Notes under the pieces: model-generated
Told to the model about the DNA's origin: nothing
Seen by the model: only the letters and a program-made list of their open reading frames with translations
Database searches by the model: none
Translations under genes and position numbers: made by a program
Sequence record: PZ452581.1
Strand: one strand, 5' to 3'
Source: a phage
Length of the DNA stretch: 64,000 nucleotides
Shown: in pieces, positions 1 through 21,025 of the stretch
How positions within the stretch are numbered: position 1 is the first letter of the stretch
How the letters are laid out: every line of letters starts with the position of its first letter

Positions 1-747
1 ATATGGATTATATGGATGTGTATAATATGGATTATACGGATTAAATCCAGGAGTTCTCCAGGTAGTGTTCCAACGAAAAGAATCGTTTTTAACCATCTTC
101 TCAATTACATCTTTTATAGCTTTTTCACTATCAAAACTTTCTTTATTTTCCTTCGGTGAAAAAAGCTTATTTTCTACATCATTCCATGTATAAACTCGCT
201 GAGCGGTTTTTGGAATATTGTCACGCTCTCCTCGCGCCATCCAATAAACAGGAACATTTAATATTTCACTCGCATGATCGCAATGGTGAGCGAGATCGTC
301 AATGTAACAAATTACGTTATATTTCTCTTTTGCCTTTTTGAACAACTCTTCTTTTGAAGAATCATGACCACACATCATTACTTCTGAGAAGGCACCAGGA
401 AAAAGAGCATTCAAATTAAATTGACGATTCAACAGAGCGTCAATAGAATCACCCAATGCTGTAACAGCTACAAAATTATAATCTTCTTTTAATTTGTTAA
501 TTACACACAGTGCATCTTTATATGGAGACAAATAACGAATAAAATCTGATCGATTATATTTTTCAATTAACTTGACACCAAGTTCTTCATCACAATTAAA
601 GAGTTTACCCGGAGAAATAAATTTCTCATCTTGGATCATTTTTAAAATATGTTCTAACGGAAGATTATATTTCTGAGCAAAATAAGGAAGGCCTGATTGC
701 CAGCTTAAACATACTCCATCAATATCAGTCAAAATAGTAGGCTTCAT
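1..747 (-). CDS. HAD-like hydrolase/phosphatase-family protein; C-terminal part lies outside window
   Basis: ATG at 745-747 (minus) overlaps stop of upstream ORF (ATGA). I translated the frame by hand: open for 249 codons to the window edge. N-terminal ILTDIDGV resembles HAD motif I, later VICYIDD; Asn-Pro-Tyr repeats encoded at 1-60. Absent from ORF track because no stop in window. Confidence 0.6.
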   Translation of the reverse strand, partial: MKPTILTDIDGVCLSWQSGLPYFAQKYNLPLEHILKMIQDEKFISPGKLFNCDEELGVKLIEKYNRSDFIRYLSPYKDALCVINKLKEDYNFVAVTALGDSIDALLNRQFNLNALFPGAFSEVMMCGHDSSKEELFKKAKEKYNVICYIDDLAHHCDHASEILNVPVYWMARGERDNIPKTAQRVYTWNDVENKLFSPKENKESFDSEKAIKDVIEKMVKNDSFRWNTTWRTPGFNPYNPYYTHPYNPY

Positions 748-1208
748 AGAGAGTCTCTTAATAGGTTTAACACATCAATAAATTCAGCTTCGGTTAGTAT
801 TGTATCATCTTTTGTTAGACCACTAGCCATGCTGTGCTTCAAAACTTTTCCTTTCGAGGCTTGTAATGCATCACGAAAGCCCCTGTTTTGGATCGCTGCT
901 TCAAAATATGCATTTGTGTATAATTCTTTCCACGCCGGGGAGTATCTTGAAAACGGAACTCCAAGCCAGAACAACGTGCCACGATCCTGAGCTCTAGCAT
1001 AAGACCTTCCAGCTTGTTGAGCGGCAAGCCCGGATAACCCAAATATACGTCTTTGCTGTTCAACATTTTTCACCTTACACCCTTGGAGGAATCCTTCGAG
1101 ACCTCCAAATTGAATACCATCCATAACGAAAGGCCATTGGGCGAAATTACTTAATGCACATGATGGCCATTTAAAATTGCTTCTTATCTCTAGCTCAGAC
1201 ATTTTCAA
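744..1208 (-). CDS. NADAR (YbiA/DUF1768)-like protein
   Basis: 154-aa ORF; segment LSNFAQWPFVMDGIQFGGLEGFLQGCK resembles the E. coli YbiA core FSNFAAWPIKVDGKTWPTSEHYFQAQK (recalled from memory); co-oriented and overlapping neighbours. Confidence 0.55.
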   Translation of the reverse strand: MKMSELEIRSNFKWPSCALSNFAQWPFVMDGIQFGGLEGFLQGCKVKNVEQQRRIFGLSGLAAQQAGRSYARAQDRGTLFWLGVPFSRYSPAWKELYTNAYFEAAIQNRGFRDALQASKGKVLKHSMASGLTKDDTILTEAEFIDVLNLLRDSL

Positions 1209-2728: not shown

Positions 2729-2805
2729 TTTATTCTCCTTTGTTTGTGTAAGATAATACTATCACAAAGGAACCATACTGTAAACAACTTTGTGCAATCT
2801 TTGGA

Positions 2806-2833
2806 AAATAAAAAAGGACTCCCGAAGGAGTCC
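2806..2833 (-). terminator. intrinsic terminator (GGACTCC-UUCG-GGAGTCC stem-loop plus U-run)
   Basis: Perfect 7-bp stem with tetraloop at 2816-2833, A-run on plus strand 2806-2815 (U-run on minus transcript), 5 nt after stop of basic-protein ORF. Confidence 0.7.
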
Positions 2834-2838
2834 TCAAC

Positions 2839-3015
2839 TTATGCTTTCTGCTTACCAAAACGAGAAGCATCATCTCGAAGAACCGCACGTGCTCGGCGCA
2901 TGATCTTCTCAACAGTTTGATTGATACGAGAGTTCGACCCACGCTTGTAACCAGCGCGTTTAGAATCACCAACTTTCTTTTCAACTGCTTTCTTTGCTTT
3001 AGCTTGTTTTGCCAT
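2839..3015 (-). CDS. small lysine/arginine-rich basic protein (about 58 aa; alternative start at 3057)
   Basis: Track ORF 2839-3057; internal ATG at 3015 gives MAKQAKAKKAVEKK...; followed by intrinsic terminator. Confidence 0.5.
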   Translation of the reverse strand: MAKQAKAKKAVEKKVGDSKRAGYKRGSNSRINQTVEKIMRRARAVLRDDASRFGKQKA

Positions 3016-3134: not shown

Positions 3135-3383
3135 TTACTTCAGTGTTACCACAAAGTGACGAACTGCTTTTCGTGCAGCAGAAGCCAGAGGCTTAGCATA
3201 TTTAAGTTCATCTTTTTCCTGAAGCTCAGCAGCTAGTGCAGTTTGAGCAGGATTCAGATGTTTGAAATAACGCAGGATTTCAAGAGCTTCGGCTTCAACA
3301 TCAATAGATGCGCCATAGTTTTCGTGACCATTATTCCATGCGTTTCGTTGCAGTTCAAGAGCGTGTTGTAATTGTTTAATCAT
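3135..3383 (-). CDS. rIII: rIII lysis-inhibition accessory protein
   Basis: 82 aa, position between 30.x block and gene 31 as in T4. Confidence 0.75.
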   Translation of the reverse strand: MIKQLQHALELQRNAWNNGHENYGASIDVEAEALEILRYFKHLNPAQTALAAELQEKDELKYAKPLASAARKAVRHFVVTLK

Positions 3384-3530: not shown

Positions 3531-3866
3531 TCACTTATAAAGACACGGAATAGCTTTATAGTGACAGGTAACAAATTTTTGTTTAATTTCTTTTGGCTTC
3601 TTAAGACCCAGAGCTACAAAAGGATGTGGAACGTTTCGAATTTGACCAACTGGAAGAGAAGTCAAATCACCAACTTCACAGAAACCTTCAGGAACATCAG
3701 GACCAACAGAGTGAACTACACACAGTTCAGGAACTTCACCTTGGACACGTTTACCAATAATAAGTCCTGATTCTGTAACTTCTTCATCACCGGCTTGTGC
3801 AGGTTCAGAAACTAAAATAACATATTCACCGACAGCACGAATTGGTAGCTGTTGTACTTCAGACAT
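3531..3866 (-). CDS. 31: gp31 co-chaperonin (GroES analogue for capsid folding)
   Basis: 111 aa; sequence [30 protein letters not shown]... recognised as T4 gp31. Confidence 0.9.
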
Positions 3867-20027: not shown

Positions 20028-20681
20028 TTAATACTTACAAGATTTCACAGTTTCAATAAAAACTTTTTTAGCTTCCTGTGAATCAATATTTAAAATTTTT
20101 CTATAAGCCTTTAATTTTATAGAATAATTATTCCAGACTAAATTATCAGTCTGTTCATCATGTTTATCAATTATATTTAAAAACGAATCAAGCAAGATAA
20201 ACGTCTCAAACGAAATTATATTTGATTGAAGTAGTTTAAAAATATAACTTGATTGAACTTTTGGATTATACTCAAAAATTTCTTTAAAAGCAGAAACTTC
20301 AACTTTTTTACTAAAATAATAAATGTTGCGAATATCTTCTTCAAACTTAAATTTAATTTGCTTTAAGCGTCCGATATATTCACGATAAAACACAAGTGCA
20401 TCAGCGTCAGAGATGTCACCAATCCAAGCATCTTGGTTAGCAACCAAATTACTTATAAAGATTAAAGCAAGTTCCTTTAATTTATATTTTTCTGATAACT
20501 TCTGGAAAAAATACTTATCCCTTCGCTTTTGATAAGCGGCATCAGACACCCGCATGCACCAATTATACTTAATAACATCATACTTTCCATTCATATGTTG
20601 TTTTATCATTAAGTATAATTTATAAACTGATTTACCATCAATATATCTTTCACCACCAGCAGGCATGCGGAGTTTAATCAT
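20028..20681 (-). CDS. 59: gp59 helicase loader
   Basis: 217 aa; sequence recognised as T4 gp59. Confidence 0.9.
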   Translation of the reverse strand: MIKLRMPAGGERYIDGKSVYKLYLMIKQHMNGKYDVIKYNWCMRVSDAAYQKRRDKYFFQKLSEKYKLKELALIFISNLVANQDAWIGDISDADALVFYREYIGRLKQIKFKFEEDIRNIYYFSKKVEVSAFKEIFEYNPKVQSSYIFKLLQSNIISFETFILLDSFLNIIDKHDEQTDNLVWNNYSIKLKAYRKILNIDSQEAKKVFIETVKSCKY

Positions 20682-21025
20682 AGTAGAAAATCTAATGTAT
20701 TAGTTTTTTCACAACGAACAACAGAAGGACGTAAAAGATTTTCGTCAATGGCTTCTGACTGAATTTTTTCAATTATACCCGAAGGAATAAATTTAGCAAA
20801 TTGAGTTTCAGGAATAGAATTTTCTTCCAAGAATGCTGTCGTAGCTTCAAGATAACTCATTCCAAACTCTTCTACCATTTTTTCAATAATAAATCCATTT
20901 TCTTGACGATCAAGAAGCTTTGCGATTTCATCTTTTTCCTTTTTAAGGGAAAGTTCTTTTTCTGAAAGCCCGGCCTCATCGACCGGGCGAATATCATTTA
21001 GAGAAAACTGTGTCATAAAGTTCAA
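20678..21025 (-). CDS. 33: gp33 late transcription co-activator
   Basis: 115 aa, ATGA overlap with 59; position as in T4. Confidence 0.8.
   Translation of the reverse strand: MNFMTQFSLNDIRPVDEAGLSEKELSLKKEKDEIAKLLDRQENGFIIEKMVEEFGMSYLEATTAFLEENSIPETQFAKFIPSGIIEKIQSEAIDENLLRPSVVRCEKTNTLDFLL

What the first reader, a model, noticed from the sequence alone, without database searches (positions are those of the whole stretch)
1..747. HAD-like phosphatase ORF with an Asn-Pro-Tyr repeat tail, running off the window edge
The N-terminus has DIDGV (HAD motif I) and a later YIDD. The distal part encodes GFNPYNPYYTHPYNPY from near-tandem AATCCATAT units at positions 1-60, a low-complexity tail unusual for a phosphatase. 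The ORF is invisible in the ORF track because its stop lies outside the window.
Basis: seen in the sequence. Interest (0 to 1): 0.35.

Follow-up and report, generated by a model that had tools for sequence, protein, structure and literature searches.

The report
T4 gene 30.2 phosphatase, repeat tail
This is the ordinary, intact copy of phage T4 gene 30.2, a conserved but untested enzyme that most likely removes phosphate from nucleotides, and its odd Asn-Pro-Tyr tail is a floppy, length-variable extension found only in close relatives.

Summary
On the minus strand, 747→1 is an open frame of 249 codons with no stop. It carries DIDGV, YIDD and the tail GFNPYNPYYTHPYNPY, which is encoded by clustered AATCCATAT-like units at 1-42.

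The window comes from a Tequatrovirus (T4-like phage). The ORF is the ortholog of T4 gene 30.2, lying between 30.3 (AdfN, a NADAR anti-DarT enzyme) and 30.1/DNA ligase. In the nearest relative (Ge15, 98% DNA identity) the gene is intact at 287 aa.

All four HAD catalytic motifs are invariant. The AlphaFold model (pLDDT 88) matches HAD structures, with the best target coverage for 5'(3')-deoxyribonucleotidases. The protein itself hits no Pfam model, but distant family members pass the Pfam NT5C threshold. It is therefore a divergent NT5C-like phosphatase whose substrate has not been tested.

The tail is predicted to be disordered and is rich in proline and aromatic residues. It shows in-frame repeat-number polymorphism: NPYYTHPY occurs 1, 2 or 3 times, HPY once or twice, and there are nine length classes, all differing by multiples of 3. 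Long tails occur only in close T4-like lineages.

Whether the tail does anything is unresolved; it may be a partner-binding tether or a neutral product of replication slippage. This is a divergent member of a known enzyme kind and of modest interest.

The parts
1..747 (-). Partial CDS, codons 1-249, of the T4 gene 30.2 ortholog. The stop codon lies beyond window position 1; the nearest relative has 287 codons.
   Evidence: Translation. phrog_420 at E=4.5e-89, scored on the full-length Ge15 ortholog. 98.2% DNA identity to phage Ge15, where the CDS is intact. Annotated as gene 30.2 in T2 and RB51.
160..747 (-). HAD-superfamily catalytic core with a helical C1 cap, residues 1-196.
   Evidence: AlphaFold pLDDT is mostly above 90 over 1-196, with strands and helices in Rossmannoid order and cap helices at 16-86. 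Foldseek against PDB gives HAD hits with E down to 4e-8.
712..726 (-). HAD motif I, DIDGV: D8 is the nucleophile and D10 the acid/base.
   Evidence: D8 and D10 are invariant in 61 and in 54 homologs. They follow strand 4-7.
460..462 (-). HAD motif II, T96.
   Evidence: Invariant in A2 and nearly invariant in A1. It lies at the end of strand 91-96.
352..354 (-). HAD motif III, K132.
   Evidence: Invariant. It lies at the start of helix 133-142.
295..306 (-). HAD motif IV, YIDD (D150, D151).
   Evidence: D150 and D151 are invariant. They lie at the end of strand 145-150.
88..129 (-). Linker helix, residues 207-220, between the core and the tail.
   Evidence: Both AlphaFold models place a helix at 207-220, with block pLDDT 79-88.
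1..87 (-). Start of the disordered Pro/Tyr/Asn/His-rich C-terminal tail, residues 221-249 of about 287.
   Evidence: pLDDT is 48-56 in the window model and 32-52 over 222-279 in the full-length T4-type model.
1..42 (-). Degenerate tandem repeat, with 9-nt AATCCATAT-like units nested in a 24-nt unit, encoding NPY NPY YTH PY NPY.
   Evidence: Copy number varies among relatives.
744..747 (-). ATGA overlap of the 30.3 stop codon (746-744) with the 30.2 start codon (747-745).
   Evidence: Read directly from the sequence and the ORF coordinates.
744..1202 (-). Upstream neighbour, gene 30.3 (AdfN, a NADAR DNA ADP-ribosylglycohydrolase). Context only.
   Evidence: Pfam PF08010 at E=8e-70. Function taken from PMC11825919.

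Best explanation
The ORF is the ortholog of phage T4 early-region gene 30.2. Its first ~196 residues form a Mg2+-dependent, DxD-type HAD phosphatase with a helical C1 cap. This core belongs to a large, mostly tail-less family that is a divergent branch of the NT5C 5'(3')-deoxyribonucleotidase family.

Its most likely activity is hydrolysis of the phosphate from a (deoxy)nucleoside monophosphate, or a similar small phospho-metabolite, during infection. That would trim or clean the nucleotide pool.

A helix at residues 207-220 follows the core. After it comes an intrinsically disordered tail of about 60 residues, rich in proline and aromatic residues. The NPY/HPY/YTHPY part of the tail is a slippage-prone coding microsatellite that expands and contracts in frame. 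The rest of the tail keeps short motifs shared across genera (W-R/K-T/S-P-G, and G-I/V-E-Y-L-x-x-Q/R-P-T), so I infer that the tail is a flexible tether carrying a short docking motif for a partner.

Shown here: gene identity, intactness in relatives, HAD fold and motifs, the NT5C relationship, predicted disorder, and repeat polymorphism.

Inferred: the substrate class, and that the tail is functional.
For: Identity and context:
- 98.2% DNA identity to Ge15, and 681 T4-like phage records match.
- The gene sits between 30.3 (PF08010) and 30.1/DNA ligase.
- phrog_420 at E=4.5e-89.

Intactness:
- Relatives have 278-295 aa ORFs that end ...GDNIFQGAF*.
- Window versus T4 over codons 1-232 shows 24 synonymous and 5 nonsynonymous codon differences.

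HAD membership:
- D8, D10, K132, D150 and D151 are invariant, and T96 is invariant or nearly so.
- The AlphaFold model has pLDDT 88 with the motifs at strand ends.
- Foldseek finds 104 PDB matches at E<=1e-3, and the 50 listed are almost all HAD-superfamily proteins. The best target TM-scores are for deoxyribonucleotidase-like proteins: 3bwv 0.71, 4yih 0.68, 2i7d 0.67.

NT5C link:
- The best PDB sequence hit of the family profile is mouse cdN (2jao), at a marginal E=0.12. It aligns DGVLADFESGL with DGVxxxWQSGL.
- 14 of 61 close members and 22 of 46 distant members hit PF06941.
- Distant members P0192, P0226 and P0252 match the 30.2 profile at E 1e-19 to 1e-23 and score 33.8-36.8 bits against the NT5C cutoff of 24.8.
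- hhalign of the two alignments gives probability 100%.

Tail:
- pLDDT is 32-52 over residues 222-279.
- Nine length classes were seen among 54 sampled records, all differing by multiples of 3.
- NPYYTHPY occurs once in T2, twice in Ge15 and three times in BYEP01. HPY occurs once in T4 and twice in FelixPlatter and SP1.
- 23 of 68 long tails carry an xEYL-type motif and 27 of 68 a WRTP-type motif, across genera.
- Distal tails are 12.9% Pro and 4.4% Trp, against 3.6% and 1.6% in cores.
Against: - The window protein itself gives no Pfam or NCBIfam hit even at E<=1. The NT5C assignment therefore rests on transitive homology and on fold.
- No substrate was or could be tested. HAD cap domains change specificity easily.
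- A dNMP nucleotidase looks counter-productive for a phage that recycles host dNMPs.
- The tail is absent from 110 of 113 distant family representatives and from many T4-like phages, so the enzyme does not need it.
- In the window's allele class the cross-genus motif is eroded: DAGYFNRFT instead of GIEYLYNRPT.
- The perfectly conserved last 36 nt also hold the Shine-Dalgarno sequence (AAGGAG) and the start codon of 30.1. That conservation is therefore not clean evidence of protein-level constraint.
- AlphaFold gave no confident docking of the tail onto the core.
- No paper on gp30.2 function was found.
Confidence: 0.6

Rival explanations
1. The enzyme core is as described, but the tail has no function. 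It is a tolerated, disordered low-complexity extension whose NPY/HPY repeats grow and shrink by replication slippage. Only frame-preserving changes survive, because the downstream gene 30.1 is translationally coupled to the 30.2 stop codon.
For: - Tails of 40 aa or more occur in only 3 of 113 distant representatives and are missing in many T4-like phages.
- The tail is predicted to be disordered.
- The tail DNA is much more divergent than the core among the same phages. About 81% of records are only 80-90% identical over the 3' 341 nt, while most are 95-99% identical over the 1300-nt region.
- The window-type allele has a degraded cross-genus motif.
- The TAATG overlap with 30.1 and its upstream AAGGAG give a reason for frame conservation that has nothing to do with the protein.
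Against: - The W-[RK]-[TS]-P-G and G-[IV]-E-Y-L-x-x-[QR]-P-T motifs persist in tails of Escherichia, Klebsiella, Citrobacter and other phage lineages whose cores are only about 50% identical.
- 57 of 98 close homologs keep a long tail.
Confidence: 0.35
2. gp30.2 works together with the upstream NADAR enzyme AdfN (gp30.3) in countering DarT1. For example, it may dephosphorylate ADP-ribose-derived products, or it may be the additional T-even protein that AdfN appears to need.
For: - The ATGA stop/start overlap of 30.3 and 30.2 suggests translational coupling.
- The same adjacency is seen in an Acinetobacter T4-like phage.
- PMC11825919 reports that AdfN works fully only in T-even infection and may require another phage protein.
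- PMC9503650 notes that HAD 5'-nucleotidases are coupled to ADP-ribose-cleaving enzymes in other conflict systems.
Against: - In five diverse T4-like phages (Shewanella Thanatos-1, Klebsiella VPA32, Erwinia Cronus, Pseudomonas PspYZU05 and a 179-kb metagenome phage), none of the called neighbours within 2.5-4 kb of the HAD gene hits PF08010. The HAD family is therefore much wider than 30.3.
- Overlapping starts and stops are common throughout T4.
- The NADAR reaction itself needs no phosphatase.
- The paper did not implicate 30.2.
Confidence: 0.07
3. gp30.2 is a polynucleotide-end (3'-phosphate) phosphatase of the PNKP type that prepares nicks for the DNA ligase encoded just downstream.
For: - There is a weak match to the polynucleotide kinase PHROG: phrog_415, E=1.2e-3, residues 74-177.
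- Foldseek against the viral library lists several PNK/phosphatase proteins at E about 1e-6.
- DNA ligase lies zero or one gene downstream in all seven diverse phages checked.
Against: - The model has a closed helical C1 cap at residues 16-86. By general knowledge of HAD enzymes, that is typical of small-molecule substrates, whereas PNKP phosphatase domains are capless.
- The NT5C signals are much stronger than the PNK ones.
- T4-like phages already encode PseT a few kb away.
- Gene order is broadly conserved in T4-like genomes, so adjacency is weak evidence.
Confidence: 0.07
4. The repeat is not coding. It is a regulatory or recombination DNA element, or the ORF is a decaying pseudogene.
For: - One sigma-70-like match (TGGAGA...TATAAT) overlaps the repeat on the minus strand.
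- In phage Ge15, extra copies of the repeat DNA sit next to an IS insertion in 30.1.
Against: - Promoter-like sites are not enriched: 10 found against 7.9 +/- 3.2 in shuffles.
- There is no Rfam match within 1-747.
- All nine length classes preserve the frame.
- The ratio of 24 synonymous to 5 nonsynonymous differences in the core shows purifying selection.
- The ORF is intact in every relative examined.
Confidence: 0.02

Closest known systems
Mammalian cytosolic and mitochondrial 5'(3')-deoxyribonucleotidases (cdN/NT5C and mdN/NT5M; Pfam PF06941), and the S. epidermidis deoxyribonucleotidase-like protein 3bwv
   Same: - DxD-type HAD core with a small helical C1 cap, about 195 residues.
- Best structural coverage in the PDB search (TMt 0.63-0.71), and the best though marginal PDB sequence hit (2jao).
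- The motif I neighbourhood aligns: D-x-D-G-V-x-x-x-[FW]-[EQ]-S-G-L.
- W16, F43 and Y64 align with cdN F18, F44 and Y65. I recall from the literature, and did not verify here, that these residues contact the nucleoside.
- Distant 30.2-family members pass the PF06941 threshold.
   Different: - The window protein itself does not reach any Pfam threshold. Identity to the PDB members is only 13-19%.
- It carries a linker helix plus a ~60-residue disordered repeat tail that these enzymes lack.
- Its substrate is unknown.
T4 gene 30.2 product (phrog_420; 'uncharacterized 32.4 kDa protein' in some records)
   Same: It is the ortholog: same position between 30.3 and 30.1/30, about 95% protein identity in the shared part, same tail architecture and same C-terminus.
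   Different: The window (Ge15-type) allele has at least two NPYYTHPY units and probably the DAGYFNRFT motif variant. T4 has NPYNPYHPYQTHPF and GIEYLYNRPT.
Phosphatase domain of T4 polynucleotide kinase/phosphatase (PseT, HAD_PNKP)
   Same: HAD fold and DxD motif. It is phage-encoded in the same early gene region. There is a weak profile match.
   Different: PseT's phosphatase domain is fused to a kinase and, by general knowledge, lacks a cap so that it can accept polynucleotide ends. gp30.2 has a C1 cap and no kinase domain.
Phage-induced dNMP nucleotidases of modified-base Bacillus phages (for example the dTMP phosphohydrolases reported for PBS2 and SP5C). This comes from my own knowledge of the classical literature.
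   Same: The concept is the same: a phage-made 5'-deoxynucleotidase that reshapes the dNMP pool during infection.
   Different: No sequence link was tested here. Those enzymes serve to exclude thymine from DNA. No such role is known for T4, which excludes cytosine through gp56 and gp42.

Membership tests
HAD superfamily phosphatases | Motif I, DxDx[T/V], at the end of strand 1 (nucleophile Asp plus Asp+2 acid/base) | tested here: met
   D8-I-D10-G-V. D8 and D10 are invariant in 61 and in 54 homologs. They follow strand 4-7.
HAD superfamily phosphatases | Motif II (Ser/Thr at the end of strand 2), motif III (Lys) and motif IV (DD at the end of strand 4) | tested here: met
   T96 lies at the end of strand 91-96, K132 before helix 133-142, and D150-D151 at the end of strand 145-150. 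All are invariant or nearly invariant.
HAD superfamily phosphatases | Rossmannoid HAD fold | tested here: met
   AlphaFold pLDDT 88. Foldseek finds 104 PDB matches at E<=1e-3. The 50 listed all have probability 1.00 and are almost all HAD-superfamily proteins.
HAD superfamily phosphatases | Mg2+-dependent phosphoryl-transfer activity | not testable with these tools
   This needs an enzyme assay with a D8N control.
NT5C / 5'(3')-deoxyribonucleotidase family (Pfam PF06941) | Score above the Pfam gathering threshold (24.8 bits) | tested here: not met
   The window protein has 0 Pfam hits at E<=1. The best close family member reaches E=1.2e-4.
NT5C / 5'(3')-deoxyribonucleotidase family (Pfam PF06941) | Homology to bona fide members, through intermediates or profiles | tested here: met
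   P0192, P0226 and P0252 match the 30.2 profile at E 9e-24 to 3e-19 and score 33.8-36.8 bits on PF06941 over the full length. 22 of 46 distant members hit NT5C. hhalign of A1 against A3 gives probability 100%.
NT5C / 5'(3')-deoxyribonucleotidase family (Pfam PF06941) | Aromatic nucleoside-contacting residues in the cap (cdN F18, F44, Y65) | tested here: inconclusive
   The profile alignment to 2jao puts W16, F43 and Y64 at those positions, and all three are invariant or nearly invariant. The alignment is only E=0.12, however, and the roles of the cdN residues come from memory.
NT5C / 5'(3')-deoxyribonucleotidase family (Pfam PF06941) | dNMP phosphatase activity | not testable with these tools
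   No biochemical data were found for gp30.2.
T4 gp30.2 orthologous group (phrog_420) | Strong profile match and conserved position upstream of 30.1/DNA ligase | tested here: met
   phrog_420 at E=4.5e-89. Synteny in Ge15, HMD-9 and T4. Annotated as gene 30.2 in T2 and RB51.
PNKP-type polynucleotide 3'-phosphatases | Capless HAD domain, usually fused to a P-loop kinase | tested here: not met
   The model has helical cap residues 16-86 and no kinase domain. The match to phrog_415 is only weak, at E=1.2e-3.
T4 sliding-clamp (gp45) binding peptides | C-terminal hydrophobic/acidic motif of the LDFL type | tested here: not met
   gp33 in this window ends TLDFLL. In the window's allele class the 30.2 tail has DAGYFNRFT and ends DNIFQGAF, with no such motif. 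T4-type alleles have an internal IEYLY. The consensus motif is recalled from memory.

The most novel reading that the evidence does not exclude
The disordered Tyr/Pro/His/Asn-rich tail is a functional tether whose length is tuned by repeat number. It would dock this nucleotidase onto a phage or host partner. Candidates are the products of the neighbouring genes (AdfN/gp30.3, gp30.1, DNA ligase) and the T4 replication or dNTP-synthesis complexes. The repeat polymorphism among near-identical phages would then reflect ongoing adaptation of that interaction, possibly within a phage-host conflict, rather than neutral slippage.
Probability: 0.2. Interest if true: 0.5.

Novelty: new member of a known kind. 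Interest (0 to 1): 0.27.

Why it matters
Gene 30.2 is one of the many T4 genes that still have no assigned function. Its catalytic core is nevertheless strongly conserved across T4-like phages of Escherichia, Klebsiella, Erwinia, Acinetobacter, Pseudomonas and Shewanella, and it shows clear purifying selection.

Placing it as a divergent NT5C-like nucleotidase gives a concrete biochemical hypothesis that is cheap to test. It also raises the question of why a phage that scavenges dNMPs keeps a dNMP phosphatase.

The gene sits directly downstream of the anti-DarT enzyme AdfN, which is reported to need an unknown T-even cofactor. That makes it a cheap candidate to test, although comparative evidence argues against an obligatory link.

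The repeat tail is a tidy example of in-frame coding-microsatellite variation in a lytic phage. On present evidence it is a curiosity rather than a discovery.

Tried and rejected
1. Direct family assignment. Pfam and NCBIfam gave nothing for the window or full-length protein, PADLOC gave nothing, and a PDB sequence search gave only noise. Membership had to be established by structure and through intermediate sequences.

2. Tail folding back on the core. A second AlphaFold run on a full-length T4-type protein, using an alignment of tail-bearing homologs, gave pLDDT 32-52 for the tail and no docking.

3. Clamp-binding peptide idea. T4-type alleles have IEYLY, which resembles LDFL. The window's allele class lacks it, and the motif is not C-terminal, unlike TLDFLL in gp33. 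Rejected as unsupported.

4. Obligatory partnership with 30.3/AdfN. In five diverse T4-like phages none of the genes called around the HAD gene hits PF08010.

5. Rosetta-stone evidence. P0013 is a HAD-DUF3045 (30.1-like) fusion. It sits on a single 1.4-kb metagenome contig and may be a simple loss of the stop codon. The C-terminal domains of P0067 and P0069 show no detectable similarity to 30.1 (BLASTP E=0.7).

6. Repeat as promoter, terminator or RNA. Promoter-like sites are not enriched, and there is no Rfam hit within 1-747.

7. Literature. Searches for gp30.2, T4p204, Y05H and '30.2' with T4 terms found no functional study. A search to confirm the cdN residue roles found nothing usable.

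8. Link to the host PUA-Cal-HAD defence, which is triggered by m6-dAMP. T2 encodes 30.2 and is still restricted, so there is no support.
Full report
**What is in the sequence**

The minus strand of window 1-747 is an open frame of 249 codons. It starts with an ATG at 747-745 and has no stop before the window edge, which is why the ORF list omits it. It contains DIDGV (residues 8-12), YIDD (148-151) and ends ...WRTPGFNPYNPYYTHPYNPY.

At the DNA level, four copies of AATCCATAT with at most one mismatch lie at 1-42 on the minus strand. Only about 35 such matches are expected in the whole 64 kb. Tandem Repeats Finder sees a weak period-9 array with score 37. The unit that is biologically meaningful is 24 nt long and encodes NPYYTHPY.

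**Where it comes from**

The first 1300 bases match 681 T4-like phage records. The best is Escherichia phage Ge15 at 98.2% identity, and the match is Tequatrovirus-wide.

The upstream ORF at 744-1208 is Pfam Phage_30_3 (E=8e-70). Further upstream lie rIII (3135-3383) and the GroES-like gp31 (3531-3866), both named from the matching Ge15 annotation. In Ge15, HMD-9 and T4 the gene order is 30.3, this gene, 30.1 (DUF3045), DNA ligase. T2 and RB51 label the gene 30.2. The finding is therefore the T4 gene 30.2 ortholog.

The start codon overlaps the 30.3 stop as ATGA. In relatives the ORF is intact: 287 aa in Ge15 and HMD-9, 278 aa in T4, and up to 295 aa in BYEP01. The window differs from Ge15 at four codons out of 249, so its missing 3' end is probably the same ~38 codons.

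**The enzyme core**

Pfam, NCBIfam, PADLOC and PDB sequence searches find nothing significant for the window protein or its full-length Ge15 ortholog. PHROGs places it in phrog_420, a family of unknown function.

A search of 5.8 billion proteins returned 100 homologs, mostly from T4-like phages of many genera. Alignment of 61 and of 54 of them shows these residues to be invariant:
- D8 and D10 (HAD motif I)
- T96 (motif II)
- K132 (motif III)
- D150 and D151 (motif IV)
- A strikingly conserved cap region: WQSGLPYFAQKYNLP, KYNxSDFIRYL and NRQFNLNALFPGAF

AlphaFold gives a confident model (pLDDT 88, and mostly above 90 over 1-196). The four motifs sit at the ends of the expected strands, and a helical C1 cap spans residues 16-86.

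Foldseek against the PDB returns 104 matches at E<=1e-3, and the 50 listed are almost all HAD-superfamily proteins. Target coverage is best for deoxyribonucleotidase-like proteins: 3bwv TMt 0.71, human cdN 4yih 0.68 and 2i7d 0.67. The viral structure library likewise returns phage '5' nucleotidase' and HAD proteins.

**Relation to NT5C**

The family profile's best PDB sequence hit is mouse cytosolic 5'(3')-deoxyribonucleotidase (2jao). The E-value is a marginal 0.12, but the alignment runs through motif I and the cap.

Scanning family members one by one, 14 of 61 hit Pfam NT5C weakly.

A profile search of 1.84 billion representative proteins found 1283 clusters at E<=1e-3. Among distant ones, 22 of 46 hit NT5C. 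Three of them (P0192, P0226, P0252) match the 30.2 profile at E 1e-19 to 1e-23 and exceed the NT5C gathering score over the full model length, at 33.8-36.8 bits against 24.8. hhalign links the two alignments at 100% probability.

Thus gp30.2 is a divergent branch of, or immediate sister to, the NT5C family. It fails the direct Pfam test and passes by transitive homology and by fold.

W16, F43 and Y64 align with cdN F18, F44 and Y65. I recall that those cdN residues contact the nucleoside, but I could not confirm it in the library, so this is a lead and not a test.

Window against T4 shows 24 synonymous and 5 nonsynonymous codon differences in the core, which is clear purifying selection.

**The tail**

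After the core comes a helix at residues 207-220. The region beyond it has pLDDT 48-56 in the window model and 32-52 over residues 222-279 in a full-length T4-type model. It is predicted to be disordered, and the prediction gives no sign that it docks onto the core.

Among 54 sampled Tequatrovirus records that cover the whole 3' 341 nt, the matched span takes nine lengths from 314 to 365 nt. Each differs from the Ge15 length by a multiple of 3. Representative sequences give an allelic series:
- NPYYTHPY occurs once in T2, twice in Ge15 and three times in BYEP01.
- HPY occurs once in T4 and twice in FelixPlatter and SP1.
- The window has at least the start of a second NPYYTHPY unit.
- The motif near the C-terminus comes in two classes: KPGG[IV]EYLYNRPT[SC]G (T4 type) and KPGDAGYFNR[FL]TSG (Ge15, T2 and probably the window).

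The 3' part of the gene is far more divergent than the core among the same phages.

Across genera, long tails are rich in proline and tryptophan: 12.9% and 4.4%, against 3.6% and 1.6% in cores. Many share W-[RK]-[TS]-P-G and G-[IV]-E-Y-L-x-x-[QR]-P-T. Another group ends in L-[RK]-A-Y-Y.

Long tails are lineage-specific. They occur in 57 of 98 close homologs but in only 3 of 113 distant representatives.

One caveat applies. The last 36 nt are identical between Ge15 and T4, but they also carry the AAGGAG ribosome-binding site and the start codon of 30.1. That conservation does not prove constraint on the protein.

**Context tests**

The upstream gene 30.3 is AdfN, a NADAR DNA ADP-ribosylglycohydrolase that counters DarTG1. 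Its authors suggest that it may need another T-even protein (PMC11825919). Aravind and colleagues note HAD 5'-nucleotidases coupled to ADP-ribose-cleaving enzymes elsewhere (PMC9503650).

I therefore tested co-occurrence. A 30.3 homolog is adjacent in an Acinetobacter phage. In Shewanella Thanatos-1, Klebsiella VPA32, Erwinia Cronus, Pseudomonas PspYZU05 and a metagenomic 179-kb phage, none of the called neighbours hits PF08010. DNA ligase lies zero or one gene downstream in all of these and in Yersinia phiR1-RT. T4-like gene order is generally conserved, so this is weak functional evidence.

The capped architecture argues against a PNKP-like role on DNA ends. A clamp-binding-peptide idea for the tail is not supported for the window's allele. 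The repeat shows no promoter enrichment and no RNA-family match.

**Verdict**

This is an intact, expressed-looking HAD phosphatase gene with a low-complexity tail whose repeat number varies among relatives.

It is not a new entity. It is T4 gene 30.2, which a few database records already tag as HAD-like or 5'-nucleotidase, but I found no functional study of it.

My best mechanistic reading is an NT5C-like (deoxy)nucleotide phosphatase whose disordered tail is a slippage-prone tether carrying a short docking motif. I put confidence in HAD phosphatase chemistry at about 0.9, in a nucleotide substrate at about 0.55, and in a functional tail at about 0.4.

Interest is modest. The most useful outcome is a concrete, easily tested biochemical hypothesis for a conserved T4 gene of unknown function that sits next to a known counter-defence gene.

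Noticed in passing
L001 (phage Ge15, PP359696.1) 1338-2861; the homologous position lies just beyond window position 1: In Ge15, gene 30.1 is disrupted after 16 codons. Two extra partial copies of the NPY-repeat DNA (L001 2749-2837) follow, then unrelated AT-rich sequence, a terminator-like hairpin, and an IS element annotated InsC/InsD. This is either a real rearrangement seeded at the repeat or an assembly artefact.
   Followed up: partly
window 744-1208 (-): The upstream neighbour is gene 30.3 (AdfN), the NADAR anti-DarT enzyme, and its stop overlaps the 30.2 start as ATGA. The ORF listing extends it to a TTG at 1208 (154 aa), whereas T4-type proteins are 152 aa, starting at the ATG at 1202. 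T4 GT7 also annotates an internal out-of-frame ORF, 30.3', within it.
   Followed up: partly
P0013 / L032 (Logan SRR21148734 contig, 1378 nt) 234-1142: A 302-aa protein fuses a tail-less 30.2-type HAD core to a DUF3045 (gp30.1-like) domain (PF11243, E=8e-15). This could be a genuine fusion of the two neighbouring genes or simple loss of the stop codon.
   Followed up: partly
P0067 and P0069 (Yersinia phage phiR1-RT and a relative), residues ~215-312: These homologs replace the disordered tail with a ~100-residue domain that looks folded, has no Pfam hit, and has no detectable similarity to gp30.1 (BLASTP E=0.7). P0082 (347 aa) instead has a Cys-rich C-terminal extension.
   Followed up: partly
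window 20678-21016 (-): A 112-aa ORF that I recognise from memory as gp33 (the late-transcription co-activator) ends in TLDFLL, the T4 sliding-clamp binding motif as I recall it. It served as an internal reference for the clamp-peptide idea.
   Followed up: no
window 2800-2883 (-): A sub-threshold Rfam match to the Rhizobiales sRNA Atu_C8 (31.4 bits against a gathering score of 50, E=0.0015) lies in the region between the 30.7-like gene and rIII. It is probably chance.
   Followed up: no
protein cluster of P0001: The 90%-identity cluster represented by the 279-aa gp30.2 protein also contains many 152-aa gp30.3 (AdfN) sequences. They were presumably pulled in by mis-called read-through or fused 30.3-30.2 proteins. 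Cluster size (1386) therefore overstates the number of gp30.2 entries.
   Followed up: no
GenBank annotations seen: Several deposited annotations around this locus look wrong. The small 30.x ORFs are called 'prohead core protein' or 'putative baseplate hub', and P0076, a 216-aa 30.2 homolog, is named 'DNA ligase'.
   Followed up: no
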